From a virus (Duplodnaviria > Heunggongvirae > Uroviricota > Caudoviricetes): a DNA stretch of 33,372 nt. A program made the translations under genes and the position numbers. The notes below the pieces were generated by a model that worked only from the letters and a program-made list of their open reading frames with translations, made no database searches and was not told the DNA's origin. Each line of letters begins with the position of its first letter. Position 1 is the first letter of the stretch. Positions 9,512 to 24,572 of this stretch are shown one piece after another. The DNA lies in the IMG/VR virus record IMGVR_UViG_2534681662_000018; one strand, written 5' to 3'.

Positions 9512-9584
9512 AAGTGTCTCCTGTTTCAGTTGATGTTCACAAAGGCCGCGCTAACGCGTGGCCTGTATTATGGAGATACGCAAT

Positions 9585-10134
9585 TATGCGCACATCCCTG
9601 ATTAAATTAATCCATGTCGCCCGTCGGGAGCTACAACTCGACGACGACACCTACCGTGCCTTTCTGATGCAGAACACGGGCAAAATCAGTTGCCGTGAGC
9701 TGACCGTCGCGCAACTGGAGCTGGTGCTCGATGCCATGAAAGAACGCGGTTTTAAGAAGCAGAATAAACACCCACGCCGTCGCTTTAAGGGGCATGTCAC
9801 GCCCCGCGAAAAGGTATTAAAAATCTGGCAGCAAATGACAGAAGACGGTTTTATTGCCGATGGCAGTGATACAGCACTGGATAAATACGTCGAACGACTG
9901 ACAGCCAGACGCAACGGCGGACAGGGTGTTTCCACACTGGCGTGGTGTCATGGCGACACGCTGCTGACAGTCCTCGAAACACTCAAGCAGTGGCACATCC
10001 GCTGTATTCGTGAAGCCTTTTCCCGTCACGGGCTTCCGTTGCCGGTCAGTCCGTCCGGTCGTGAACTGCGCGGCTATGATGCCATGACGGCGGCTTATGC
10101 CCATGCCAGAAAGACACGGAGGATGGCACAATGA
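9585..10134 (+). CDS. gemA: GemA, host gene-expression modulation protein (183 aa)
   Basis: ATG at 9585 preceded by GGAG; track ORF starts at GTG 9514. Assignment by position immediately upstream of mor. Confidence 0.75.
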
Positions 10135-21471: not shown

Positions 21472-21882
21472 ATGTCAGGCACTTCGCTTAATTCACAACG
21501 GCTGGACACTTCTCGCATCACTTGCACGGCGATTATTAAATGCCTTCGTCCGGTCTACCGCCGCGCCGGAATCGCCTTTACGCGTGGCGAAAACACCGTG
21601 GAAGTCACCGAAGAACAACTGGCGATTATCCGTGCCGACAGCGTGCTGTCTGTTGTATCGACAACGGCAGCAGAAACGCTCGCTGAGGCTGGGGGGCTGG
21701 ACGTTCTGGGTGTGGGCGATCTGAATACCCGTATCCGTGCGACCGTTGCCGGTCTGGATAAGGCAAATCCGGAGCACTTTACCGCAGGGGGAGAACCCAA
21801 AGTGAAAGCCGTCAGTGCGGCGCTGGGGGAACCGGTGAGCAGTGCGCAAATCAAAGCGGCGCTGGCTGAGGCGGATGCATGA
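21472..21882 (+). CDS. Late head-region hypothetical protein (136 aa)
   Basis: ATG at 21472 preceded by AAGGAGGAG. Confidence 0.6.
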   Translation: MSGTSLNSQRLDTSRITCTAIIKCLRPVYRRAGIAFTRGENTVEVTEEQLAIIRADSVLSVVSTTAAETLAEAGGLDVLGVGDLNTRIRATVAGLDKANPEHFTAGGEPKVKAVSAALGEPVSSAQIKAALAEADA

Positions 21883-22304
21883 ATTACGCGACAGTAAATG
21901 ACCTGTGCGCCCGCTATACACGTACGCGGCTGGATATTCTCACCCGCCCTAAAACAGCGGACGGGCAGCCGGATGATGCCGTGGCAGAACAGGCACTGGC
22001 AGATGCTTCGGCCTTTATTGATGGCTATCTCGCCGCGCGCTTTGTTCTGCCGCTTACCGTCGTCCCCTCACTGCTGAAACGGCAGTGTTGCGTGGTGGCC
22101 TGGTTTTATCTGAATGAATCACAACCCACCGAGCAGATCACCGCTGCCTACAGGGACACAGTGCGCTGGCTGGAACAGGTGCGCGATGGCAAAACAGATC
22201 CCGGCGTGGAAAGCAGGACGGCAGCCTCGCCGGATGGTGAAAACCTTGTGCAGGTGCAGTCTGACGCGCCGGTCTTCTCACGAAAACAGAAGGGGTTTAT
22301 CTGA
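21879..22304 (+). CDS. J: Head-tail joining protein J (141 aa)
   Basis: ORF 21879..22304, 4-nt overlap with the upstream gene. Confidence 0.65.
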   Translation: MNYATVNDLCARYTRTRLDILTRPKTADGQPDDAVAEQALADASAFIDGYLAARFVLPLTVVPSLLKRQCCVVAWFYLNESQPTEQITAAYRDTVRWLEQVRDGKTDPGVESRTAASPDGENLVQVQSDAPVFSRKQKGFI

Positions 22305-22852
22305 TGCTGGAAGAAACCGAAGCCGCACTGCTGGCGCGCGTTCGTGAGTTGTTTGGGGCAACCCTGCGGCAGGTGGAACCCATTACCGGCACATGGACTA
22401 ACGAGGATGTGCACCGTCTCTTTCTGGCCCCGCCATCGGTATTTCTGGCATGGATGGGCTGTGGTGAGGGGCGTACGCGTCGGGAAGTTGAAAGTCGCTG
22501 GGCATTTTTTGTCGTGGCGGAGTTGCTGAACGGGGAACCGGTAAACCGGCCCGGTATTTATCAGATTGTGGAGCGACTGATTGCCGGTGTTAACGGTCAG
22601 ACGTTTGGCCCGACCACCGGGATGAGACTGACGCAGGTCAGAAATCTTTGTGACGACAACCGTATCAATGCCGGTGTGGTGCTTTACGGCGTTCTGTTCA
22701 GTGGCACTACCCCGCTGCCGTCTGTGGTGGACATGGATTCGCTGGATGATTACGAGCGTCACTGGCAGACCTGGAAACTCCCGGCCGAAACCCCGGAATT
22801 TGCCGCACATATCAATGTGAATCAGGAAAAGGATAATGATGCTGAAAATTAA
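22304..22852 (+). CDS. K: Tail/head completion protein K (182 aa)
   Basis: ORF 22304..22852; TGATG overlap with J. Confidence 0.65.
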   Translation: MLEETEAALLARVRELFGATLRQVEPITGTWTNEDVHRLFLAPPSVFLAWMGCGEGRTRREVESRWAFFVVAELLNGEPVNRPGIYQIVERLIAGVNGQTFGPTTGMRLTQVRNLCDDNRINAGVVLYGVLFSGTTPLPSVVDMDSLDDYERHWQTWKLPAETPEFAAHINVNQEKDNDAEN

Positions 22853-23066
22853 ACCCGCAGAGGGAAAAACCATCCGTGACCCGCTCACGATGGAATTACT
22901 GGCGCCTGAGGGAGAAGAAAAGCCCCGTAACAGTTTCTGGATACGTCGCCTTGTAGCCGGTGATGTGGTTGAAGTCGGGAGCACCGAAAACACTGATGTG
23001 GTTGAAGTCGGGAGCACCGAAAACACGGCGGATGATACCGACGCTGCGCTGAAAAAAACGGAGTAA
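22836..23066 (+). CDS. Small late protein upstream of sheath (76 aa) containing an in-frame 11-aa tandem duplication
   Basis: ORF 22836..23066; VVEVGSTENTD and VVEVGSTENTA encoded by the tandem 33-bp repeat. Confidence 0.55.
   Translation: MMLKIKPAEGKTIRDPLTMELLAPEGEEKPRNSFWIRRLVAGDVVEVGSTENTDVVEVGSTENTADDTDAALKKTE
22962..23027 (+). repeat. Perfect-but-one 33-bp direct tandem repeat, 2 copies (GATGTGGTTGAAGTCGGGAGCACCGAAAACAC)
   Basis: Copy 1 at 22962-22994 and copy 2 at 22995-23027 are identical except the last base (T vs G); in frame within the 76-aa ORF. Confidence 0.9.
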
Positions 23067-23072
23067 ATCGAA

Positions 23073-24572
23073 ATGAGCGATATTTCATTTAACGCGATCC
23101 CGCCAGATGTTCGCGTTCCTCTGGCGTATATCGAATTTGATAACAGTAATGCCGTCAGCGGAACACCGGCCCCCCGTCAGCGCGTGCTGATGTTCGGGCA
23201 AAGCAATAAGGGGGCCAGTGCGGCACCAGACGTGCCTGTCCGTATCCGTTCCGGCTCACAGGCCAGTGCGGCGTTTGGTCAGGGTTCCATGCTGGCACTG
23301 ATGGCAGATGCATTCCTGAAAGCTAACCGCGTGGCGGAGCTGTGGTGTATTCCGCAGGCGAAAAACCCCGGTAATACTATCTCTAAAACTACTGTCGGTT
23401 TAATCACACTGTCAGGAACGGCAACCGAAAACGGCTCGCTTGTGACTTACATTGCCGGTCAGCGACTGGCGGTATCCGTCGCAGCAGGTACCAAGGGATC
23501 GAAGCTGGCTGGCCTGCTGACTGACCGAATCAACGGTCATCCTGATTTGCCGGTGAAGGCAGTATTGCTCTCAACCACGCCGGATGATGCCGGCGCTACA
23601 GATATAGTTCTGACTGCAAAATTTACGGGTGCATTATCTGCCGTGGATGTGCGCTGGAACTATTACGCGGGTGAAACCACCCCTTACGGGATTATCACGG
23701 CATTCAAAGCCGAATCCCGGAAATACATCAACCCGGATATCAGCGCAAGTATCGCGGGAATGGGCGATCTGCAATACAAATATATTGTGATGCCCTATAC
23801 CGATGAACCGAACCTGAATCTGTTACGCACTGAATTGCAGGAACGCTGGGGACCGGTCAGTCAGGCTGATGGCTTTGCCGTGACAGTGCTGTCCGGCACG
23901 TATGGGGATATTTCCACGTTTGGTGTCAGACGTAATGACCATCTGATTTCCTGTATGGGGATTGCCGGTGCACCGGAACCGTCATATCTGTACGCCGCCA
24001 CCCTGTGTGCCGTTGCCAGCCAGGCGCTTTCCATCGACCCGGCGCGTCCACTCCAGACGCTGACGTTGCCCGGAAGAATGCCGCCTGCGGTGGGGGATCG
24101 TTTCACCTGGTCAGAACGTAATGCGCTGCTGTTTGACGGCATCTCCACGTTTAACGTGAATGATGGTGGTGAAATGCAGATTGAACGCATGATCACGATG
24201 TACCGCACGAACAAGTACGGTGACAGCGATCCGTCTTATCTGAACGTGAATACCATCGCCACGCTGAGTTATCTGCGTTATTCGCTGCGAACCCGCATCA
24301 CGCAGAAATTCCCGAACCACAAGCTGGCAAGTGATGGCACCCGCTTTGCCACCGGTCAGGCCGTGGTGACGCCATCCGTGATCAAAACGGAGCTGCTGGC
24401 ACTGTTTGAAGAATGGGAAAACGCCGGACTGGTCGAGGATTTCGACACGTTCAAAGAGGAGCTGTATGTGGCACGTAACAAGGACGACAAAGACCGTCTT
24501 GATGTGCTGTGCGGCCCGAATCTGATTAACCAGTTCCGCATTTTCGCGGCACAAGTTCAGTTCATTCTGTAA
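23073..24572 (+). CDS. L: Contractile tail sheath protein L (499 aa)
   Basis: ORF 23073..24572 with RBS AAACGGAG upstream; size and position of sheath. Confidence 0.88.

What the first reader, a model, noticed from the sequence alone, without database searches (positions are those of the whole stretch)
22962..23027. 33-bp in-frame tandem duplication inside a small late gene
Two adjacent 33-bp copies, identical except for the final base, duplicate the 11-aa unit VVEVGSTENT(D/A) in the 76-aa ORF just upstream of the sheath gene. Such a near-perfect repeat is recent and may be copy-number variable between isolates by slippage, or could be an assembly artefact.
Basis: seen in the sequence. Interest (0 to 1): 0.5.

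Follow-up and report, generated by a model that had tools for sequence, protein, structure and literature searches.

The report
Tandem duplication in Mu gp38 tail
A Mu-like prophage of E. coli carries a real, inherited 33-base in-frame duplication that adds 11 amino acids to the floppy tail of a small protein of unknown function; it is an ordinary allele, not an assembly error.

Summary
Window 22961-23026 is a perfect 2 x 33-bp tandem repeat, the only perfect tandem in the window. It lies in-frame in the 76-aa ORF 22836-23066, the homologue of phage Mu gp38 (Pfam DUF2635), between the tail terminator gp37/K and the sheath gene L.

- **Derived state.** Mu, D108, SfMu, all 14 phage records and all 51 Mu-like places in 44 complete E. 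coli genomes have one copy.
- **Not an artefact.** The exact 76-aa protein occurs on 102 public contigs, plus 19 where the gene is called from the second Met. Seven further contigs that differ from the window by 0.5-1.4% carry the same 66 bp.
- **Copy-number variation is weakly supported.** On the same protein backbone a one-copy form (65 aa, 2 contigs) exists. No three-copy form was found.
The lineage also has a +1 A in an A6 run (23052-23058). This changes the C-terminus PKKRSKSK to LKKTE and removes the ATGA stop/start overlap with L.
- **Likely effect.** AlphaFold2 puts the extra copy in a disordered tail. Tail length varies from 3 to 65 aa across the family, and other members carry their own tail repeats.

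The most likely reading is a slippage-type, near-neutral duplication. gp38 function remains unknown. Interest is low.

The parts
22836..23066 (+). gp38 homologue (76 aa), a DUF2635 protein. It has a folded N-terminal domain (about residues 1-48) and a disordered acidic tail (residues 49-76).
   Evidence: ORF list. Pfam PF10948, 77.4 bits against a cut-off of 26.6, residues 5-48. PHROG 208, unknown function. AF2 pLDDT is 81-90 for residues 1-50 and below 55 for residues 51-76.
22961..22993 (+). Repeat copy 1 (33 bp). It encodes the last strand of the folded domain (DVVEV) plus GSTENT.
   Evidence: TRF, sequence, AF2 strand E44-46.
22994..23026 (+). Repeat copy 2 (33 bp), identical to copy 1 and absent from Mu, D108 and all complete E. 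coli genomes searched. It encodes residues 54-64 in the disordered tail.
   Evidence: Alignment A1 shows a 33-column gap in all four relatives. A 33-bp insertion against Mu. Relatives span 122 bases for the 156-base query.
23050..23058 (+). C to T (Pro to Leu) at 23050, plus an A7 run at 23052-23058 where Mu has A6. The +1 frameshift changes the C-terminus PKKRSKSK* to LKKTE*.
   Evidence: Alignment A1. It is the only uncompensated, non-multiple-of-3 indel against Mu in the 23.8-kb alignment of window 9589-33372. The same state is present in L005, L006 and L008-L012.
23060..23066 (+). Shine-Dalgarno GGAG of L (23060-23063), followed directly by the new gp38 stop TAA (23064-23066), 6 nt before the L start codon.
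   Evidence: Sequence. The homologous GGAG is annotated as the RBS of Mu_39 in AF083977. In Mu the gp38 stop overlaps the L start as ATGA.
23073..24572 (+). Tail sheath gene L (499 aa; Mu has 495 aa because of a 12-bp insertion at 23376 here).
   Evidence: Pfam Phage_sheath_1, Phage_sheath_1C and domII. Indel list.
22304..22852 (+). gp37/K tail terminator. It overlaps the gp38 start by 17 nt.
   Evidence: Pfam Phage_Mu_Gp37. Role taken from the Mu cryo-EM structure, PMC11915804.

Best explanation
The feature is a lineage-specific allele of the Mu late gene gp38 (DUF2635).

**Origin (inferred).** A single replication-slippage or unequal-exchange event duplicated 33 bp exactly and in frame.

**Effect on the protein.** Copy 1 still supplies the last beta-strand (DVVEV) of the small folded N-terminal domain. 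Copy 2 adds 11 residues (DVVEVGSTENT) to the intrinsically disordered acidic C-terminal tail. The tail is length-tolerant, so I infer the change is neutral or nearly so.

**Spread.** It has spread with one gp38-L haplotype of Mu-like prophages in E. coli.

**Linked change.** The same haplotype carries a +1 A in an A6 run. This replaces the basic end PKKRSKSK with LKKTE and moves the gp38 stop from the ATGA overlap with L to a TAA just after L's Shine-Dalgarno sequence. L translation coupling is probably preserved (inferred).

**Reversibility.** The perfect repeat can be lost again by slippage, which would explain the rare one-copy form on the same backbone.

Shown here: the anatomy, the derived state, heritability, the position in a predicted disordered tail, and the family-wide tail variability. 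Inferred: the slippage mechanism, neutrality and the direction of the 1/2-copy change.
For: - **The repeat is real and beyond chance.** Perfect 2 x 33 bp; expected by chance about 6e-16.
- **Relatives have one copy.** Mu, D108, SfMu, Yersinia Mu-like phages and two E. coli prophages. All 44 complete E. coli genomes with this gene (51 places) span 122 bases for the 156-base query, which means one copy plus A6.
- **The two-copy form is widespread in drafts.** The exact 76-aa protein is on 102 contigs, and the variant called from the second Met is on 19. The exact L allele is found in 125 blocks of the collection.
- **Carriers are distinct genomes.** Carriers L005, L006 and L008-L012 differ from the window by 0.5-1.4% yet have no difference in gp38. 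Their SNPs cluster upstream at 21627-22723.
- **An independent assembly breaks at the repeat.** The k-mer assembly of run SRR446750 is identical to the window up to 22990 and ends inside copy 1, as expected for a graph branch at a real tandem junction.
- **Variants on the same backbone.** P0023 has one copy with LKKTE. P0024 has two copies with PKKRSKSK.
- **Structure prediction.** AF2 gives residues 1-48 as folded (pLDDT 81-90) and residues 51-76 as disordered.
- **Family behaviour.** In 137 family members the tail length is 3-65 aa and rich in A/K/P/E/S/T. Several members carry their own tail tandem repeats: P0108, P0081, P0151, P0030.
Against: - There is no microhomology in register at the duplication endpoints, so the slippage origin is not directly evidenced (sequence).
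- The allele moves the tail net charge to -6, compared with a family median of +1. Only 2% of representatives are at or below -6. A functional consequence therefore cannot be excluded.
- DNA for the one-copy variant P0023 could not be retrieved. It could be an ancestor or an assembly collapse rather than a slippage revertant.
- gp38 function is unknown, so neutrality is untested.
Confidence: 0.8

Rival explanations
1. Assembly or sequencing artefact: the second copy (and the extra A) were introduced by the assembler or by homopolymer error and are not in the DNA.
For: The window is a 2013 draft contig that breaks at the G segment. A homopolymer +1 is a classic sequencing error. A 33-bp tandem forms a loop in k=31 graphs (L018 breaks there).
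Against: The same 66 bp plus A7 occurs in seven other contigs that differ from the window at 20-43 sites in 3.3 kb. The protein is on 102 + 19 contigs from NCBI, JGI and ENA sources and from different projects, such as the 2013 WGS sets and the 2024 third-party reassemblies. A break of the k-mer assembly exactly at the repeat implies that both continuations are present in the reads.
Confidence: 0.02
2. Contingency or hypervariable locus: the 33-bp unit changes copy number frequently by slippage, and tail length is a selected, tunable property of gp38.
For: A perfect repeat is slippage-prone. One-copy and two-copy forms exist on the same backbone, and together with the two tail states all four combinations occur, so at least one homoplasy or a very short-range recombination is needed. 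Tail length is highly variable across the family.
Against: Only 2 one-copy contigs were found against about 121 two-copy contigs on this backbone. No three-copy protein appears among the hits or cluster members. The junction pattern occurs once per contig. All sequenced carriers are identical in gp38. The unit is in-frame, so it cannot act as an on/off switch.
Confidence: 0.08
3. Functionally adaptive or compensatory allele: loss of the basic C-terminal patch through the A7 frameshift and gain of 11 acidic-tail residues act together to retune gp38's interaction with a partner such as the co-inherited 499-aa sheath variant.
For: The duplication, the frameshift and the L allele are almost completely linked: 106 blocks for the gp38 allele, with a further 19 contigs under the second-Met call, and 125 blocks for the L allele. 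Tail net charge shifts from +1 to -6, at the edge of the family range.
Against: The linkage is expected from physical proximity alone, since the changes lie within 90 bp of each other and next to L. 28% of family representatives lack a basic cluster, and one E. coli relative (P0009) has a -11 tail with no basic end. gp38 was not resolved in Mu virions and has no known partner.
Confidence: 0.08
4. The repeat is a DNA- or RNA-level element (paired protein-binding sites, or an antisense gene starting in the repeat) rather than a protein feature.
For: Two identical 33-bp direct repeats sit 47 bp upstream of the L start. A 292-aa antisense ORF (22148-23026) begins in the repeat.
Against: All relatives function with one copy. 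The antisense frame has 2 stops in Mu. The + strand is covered by Pfam-supported genes.
Confidence: 0.02

Closest known systems
Bacteriophage Mu gp38 (Mup38, NP_050642; Pfam DUF2635; FluMu HI1510 homologue)
   Same: Same position between gp37/K and L. Same N-terminal domain: the DNA is 97% identical outside the indels, and the Pfam match scores 77 bits.
   Different: This allele has +11 aa (a second DVVEVGSTENT). Its C-terminus is LKKTE instead of PKKRSKSK because of a +1 A. Its stop codon no longer overlaps the L start.
Slippage-type in-frame tandem duplications in disordered regions of phage and bacterial proteins (established general mechanism)
   Same: Perfect head-to-tail copies whose length is a multiple of 3, lying in a low-complexity tail predicted to be disordered. 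Other DUF2635 members show independent tail repeats.
   Different: No flanking microhomology in register. Only two copies. Little copy-number polymorphism was observed.
Phase-variable simple-sequence contingency loci
   Same: A repeat and a homopolymer (A7) lie inside a coding region.
   Different: The 33-bp unit keeps the reading frame. The A7 state is fixed across all carriers examined. There is no evidence of switching.

Membership tests
Mu gp38 / DUF2635 (PF10948) | Profile match above Pfam's gathering score | tested here: met
   77.4 bits against a cut-off of 26.6; residues 5-48 match profile positions 1-44 of 46.
Mu gp38 / DUF2635 (PF10948) | Synteny: a small gene between the tail terminator (gp37) and the sheath gene (L) | tested here: met
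   ORFs and Pfam hits in the window. Same order in Mu and in carrier contigs.
Mu gp38 / DUF2635 (PF10948) | Conserved core residues (P7, G10, D15, P16, L22, G26, W35, R37, R38, G42, V44) | tested here: met
   These columns are invariant or at least 90% conserved in the 100-sequence alignment A2, and all are present in the window protein.
Mu gp38 / DUF2635 (PF10948) | Basic (K/R-rich) patch near the C-terminus. This is common in the family but not defining. | tested here: not met
   The window tail has at most 2 K/R in any 8 residues. 72% of 143 representatives have 3 or more, and 28% do not.
Sheath terminator (GenBank AF083977 label for Mu gp38) | A virion component that caps the sheath at the neck | not testable with these tools
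Assembly artefact | Confined to one assembly and not reproduced independently | tested here: not met
   102 + 19 contigs carry the protein. Seven distinct carrier sequences were read.
Copy-number-variable (slippage) repeat locus | Different copy numbers among close relatives that share the same flanks | tested here: inconclusive
   The one-copy P0023 (2 contigs) stands against the two-copy P0001, P0022 and P0024 on an identical backbone. DNA for P0023 and P0024 could not be retrieved. No three-copy form was found.
Programmed ribosomal frameshift site at the A-run | An in-phase X XXY YYZ heptamer, a conserved alternative frame and a stimulatory element | tested here: not met
   In Mu the zero frame reads CCG AAA AAA CGG. 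Here it reads CTG AAA AAA ACG. Here the frame that would restore the Mu-type end adds 7 residues (KRSKSK in place of TE). Relatives simply have A6. No stimulatory element was searched for.

The most novel reading that the evidence does not exclude
The disordered tail of gp38 might be a tunable tether or spacer in Mu tail assembly. In that case the 33-bp repeat and the adjacent A6/A7 tract would form a small mutational hot spot that lets Mu-like prophages switch between tail variants: short or long, and basic-ended or acidic-ended. The four observed combinations (Mu type, P0023, P0024, P0001) would be the footprint of recurrent switching.
Probability: 0.05. Interest if true: 0.35.

Novelty: new member of a known kind. 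Interest (0 to 1): 0.12.

Why it matters
It matters little for biology at large. It is an undescribed but already databased allele of a phage gene whose function is unknown.

It has three modest uses:
- It is a clean lineage marker for one clade of E. coli Mu-like prophages, because the junction sequence is unique.
- It is natural evidence that the gp38 C-terminal tail tolerates both an 11-aa insertion and loss of its basic end. That is helpful for anyone who sets out to determine what gp38 does.
- It is a caution for short-k assemblies, which break at this repeat.

Tried and rejected
- **Microhomology at the duplication endpoints.** The nearby CGG/TGAT similarities are at lags of 38-39, not 33, so they do not explain the event (sequence).
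- **Family libraries.** NCBIfam gives no family. PHROG 208 has unknown function.
- **Literature.** There are no papers for DUF2635 or for Mu's Mup38 locus tag. The only relevant statement is that gp38 was unresolved in the Mu cryo-EM structures.
- **Junction and A7 patterns in other collections.** There were no hits in JGI metagenome contigs or in GTDB representative genomes.
- **Antisense ORF 22148-23026.** Rejected, because the frame has 2 stops in Mu.
- **Programmed frameshifting at the A-run.** Considered and not supported.

Full report
**1. The observation**

Tandem Repeats Finder reports one array at 22961-23026 with period 33, 2.0 copies, 100% matches and no indels. A scan of my own found no other perfect tandem (lag 6-199) in the window. 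The chance expectation for such a run is about 6e-16.

The ancestral ...GG|T GAT ... AAC AC|G GCG... became ...AC|T GAT ... AC|G. The junction codon ACT is therefore synonymous with ACG, and the protein carries a perfect DVVEVGSTENT x2.

The repeat lies in the 76-aa ORF 22836-23066 (+). This ORF overlaps the end of the preceding 182-aa gene and stops 6 nt before a 499-aa gene.

**2. Context**

- The window is E. coli chromosome at 1-1259. That stretch is an inverse-autotransporter gene, 99.8% identical to many E. coli genomes.
- A Mu-like prophage follows, starting at the canonical Mu left end TGTATTGATTCACTTG at 1260.
- The prophage runs to 33372, which corresponds to Mu 31979, 13 bp past the G-segment boundary.
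- The window is 100% identical to part of draft contig AQDT01000039.1 of GCA_000355595.1.
- The three genes around the repeat are gp37/K (Pfam Phage_Mu_Gp37), gp38 (DUF2635, 77 bits, residues 5-48) and the sheath gene L. The order is the same as in Mu.

**3. Comparison with relatives**

All 14 phage records that match the gene span 197 bases for the 231-base query. They include Mu, D108, SfMu, PhiR68_1 and Yersinia Mu-like phages.

The alignment with Mu, D108 and two E. coli prophages shows two differences in the window:
- a 33-base insertion, which is the second copy;
- one extra A in the run CCGAAAAAACGG, giving CTGAAAAAAACGG.

Across the 23.8-kb alignment with Mu (window 9589-33372) the 33-bp insertion is the largest indel. 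The +1 A is the only indel that is neither a multiple of three nor compensated within a few bases.

In 5,426 complete E. coli genomes, 44 carry this gene at 51 places. Forty-two of them span 122 bases for a 156-base query, meaning one copy and A6. The other two diverge after the first 74 bases. None has the duplication. The two-copy state is therefore derived, not ancestral.

**4. Is it real?**

- The junction-specific 26-mer occurs in two IMG/VR contigs, L005 and L006.
- The exact 76-aa protein (P0001) is on 102 contigs in NCBI, JGI and ENA sources. The same gene called from the second Met (P0022) is on 19 more.
- Five further NCBI contigs were read: L008-L012.
- These seven carriers differ from the window by 0.5-1.4% with no indels.
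- Within the common 3.3 kb they differ at 47 sites. None of these is in gp38. Forty-two lie upstream at 21627-22723, and only five lie in the 2.2 kb downstream.
- The window's exact L allele is recorded in 125 blocks of the collection, close to 106 blocks for P0001 plus 19 contigs for P0022.
- An independent k-mer assembly of run SRR446750 (Logan) is identical to the window up to 22990, and its contig ends 30 nt into copy 1. That is the behaviour expected when the reads contain both continuations of the repeat.

An assembly artefact is therefore excluded for practical purposes.

**5. Copy-number variation**

The 90% cluster of P0001 holds two further forms on the identical lineage-specific backbone (E9, T12, E20, V40):

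| Form | Length | Copies | C-terminus | Contigs |
|---|---|---|---|---|
| P0023 | 65 aa | 1 | LKKTE | 2 |
| P0024 | 79 aa | 2 | Mu-type PKKRSKSK | 1 |

With the Mu type and P0001, all four combinations of copy number and tail state exist. The two characters lie less than 60 bp apart, so at least one homoplasy is needed.

The cheapest explanation is loss of one copy of a perfect repeat by slippage: Mu type, then P0024, then P0001, then P0023. This is an inference. I could not retrieve the DNA of P0023 or P0024, and P0023 could be a precursor or a collapsed assembly.

No three-copy form appears among the homologues or cluster members, and the junction occurs once per contig. Variation exists but is rare, at roughly 2 one-copy contigs against 121 two-copy contigs.

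**6. What the duplication does to the protein**

AlphaFold2 with a 100-sequence alignment gives a small beta-beta-alpha-beta domain for residues 1-48 (pLDDT 81-90). Residues 51-76 have low confidence (block means 47-54). The first DVVEV forms the last strand (E44-46), and the second copy (residues 54-64) lies in the disordered part.

A HMMER scan of 1.84 billion representatives found 589 family members. In the best 150:
- the tail after the domain is 3-65 aa long (median 24) and rich in A, K, P, E, S and T;
- several members have their own tail tandem repeats: P0108 has APKEEKAA x3, P0081 has ERRAK x2, and P0151 and P0030 have others.

The tail is thus a length-tolerant, repeat-prone disordered region, and an 11-aa insertion there is unremarkable.

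**7. The linked frameshift**

The extra A changes ...AAPKKRSKSK* to ...AALKKTE*. In Mu the stop overlaps the L start as ATGA. Here the stop is TAA at 23064-23066, directly after L's Shine-Dalgarno GGAG at 23060-23063 and 6 nt before the ATG. The SD and its spacing are untouched, so L initiation and termination-reinitiation coupling are probably preserved (inference).

Together the two changes shift tail net charge from +1 to -6. The family median is +1, and only 2% of representatives are at or below -6. However, 28% lack a basic cluster, and one E. coli relative (P0009) has a -11 tail. The allele is extreme but not unprecedented.

**8. Function of gp38**

The function is unknown.
- PHROG 208 is 'unknown function'.
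- NCBIfam has no model.
- The PDB has no sequence relative.
- The 2025 cryo-EM study of Mu states that gp38 could not be resolved and that gp37 alone caps both tube and sheath (PMC11915804). The GenBank label 'putative sheath terminator' therefore has no structural support.

My working view, held with low confidence, is that gp38 is a tail-assembly accessory or a flexibly attached neck protein. The basis is its conserved position next to the sheath gene.

**9. Verdict**

This is a real, inherited, derived, slippage-type in-frame duplication in a disordered tail. It is linked to a small frameshift at the 3' end of the gene and marks one clade of E. coli Mu-like prophages. It is ordinary in kind and of low interest.

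Noticed in passing
window 23050-23066: A +1 A (A7 where Mu has A6) plus a C to T change rewrites the gp38 C-terminus from PKKRSKSK* to LKKTE*. It replaces the ATGA stop/start overlap with L by a TAA that directly follows L's Shine-Dalgarno sequence. This is the only uncompensated frameshift indel against Mu in the 23.8-kb alignment (window 9589-33372) and is present in all two-copy carriers read.
   Followed up: yes
L018 (Logan assembly of SRR446750), end of contig = window 22990: An independent k-mer assembly of what is probably the same isolate breaks 30 nt into repeat copy 1. Short-k assemblies cannot traverse this 33-bp tandem.
   Followed up: partly
window 23376-23387 (and 23205-23212): The sheath gene L has a 12-bp insertion (ACTATCTCTAAA, 4 aa) and a small 3-bp deletion/3-bp insertion pair relative to Mu, giving 499 aa instead of 495. 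This L allele is tightly linked to the gp38 duplication (125 blocks of the collection).
   Followed up: partly
window 1-1262: The host flank is an E. coli inverse-autotransporter / LysM-domain gene. The Mu left end (TGTATTGATTCACTTGAAGTACG) starts at 1260, so the prophage appears to interrupt that gene. The right end, and therefore the 5-bp target duplication, is not in the window.
   Followed up: partly
window 33372 (end): The contig ends at Mu coordinate 31979, 13 bp past the G-segment boundary (31966). This is a typical assembly break at the invertible G segment.
   Followed up: no
window 5799-6400, 8301-8837, 9201-9588: These early-region segments have no blastn match to Mu, and 8838-9200 is only 81% identical. 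This is mosaic replacement of early accessory genes (Mu gp6-gp7 and the gp12-gp15 region).
   Followed up: no
window 21627-22723: Among two-copy carriers nearly all SNPs (42 of 47 in 3.3 kb) cluster in gp35-gp37, upstream of gp38. The gp38-L segment is almost invariant. This suggests recombination breakpoints just upstream of gp38.
   Followed up: partly
window 22148-23026 (- strand): A 292-aa antisense ORF starts (GTG) at the end of the repeat and runs through gp37. The same frame has 2 stops in Mu, so it is spurious.
   Followed up: yes
P0017, P0066 (E. coli gp38 relatives): Two database variants of gp38 are frameshifted after the folded domain or within it and read on towards L (…[26 protein letters not shown]). 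They are either sequencing errors or natural gp38 pseudogenes. If real, they hint that gp38 is dispensable.
   Followed up: no
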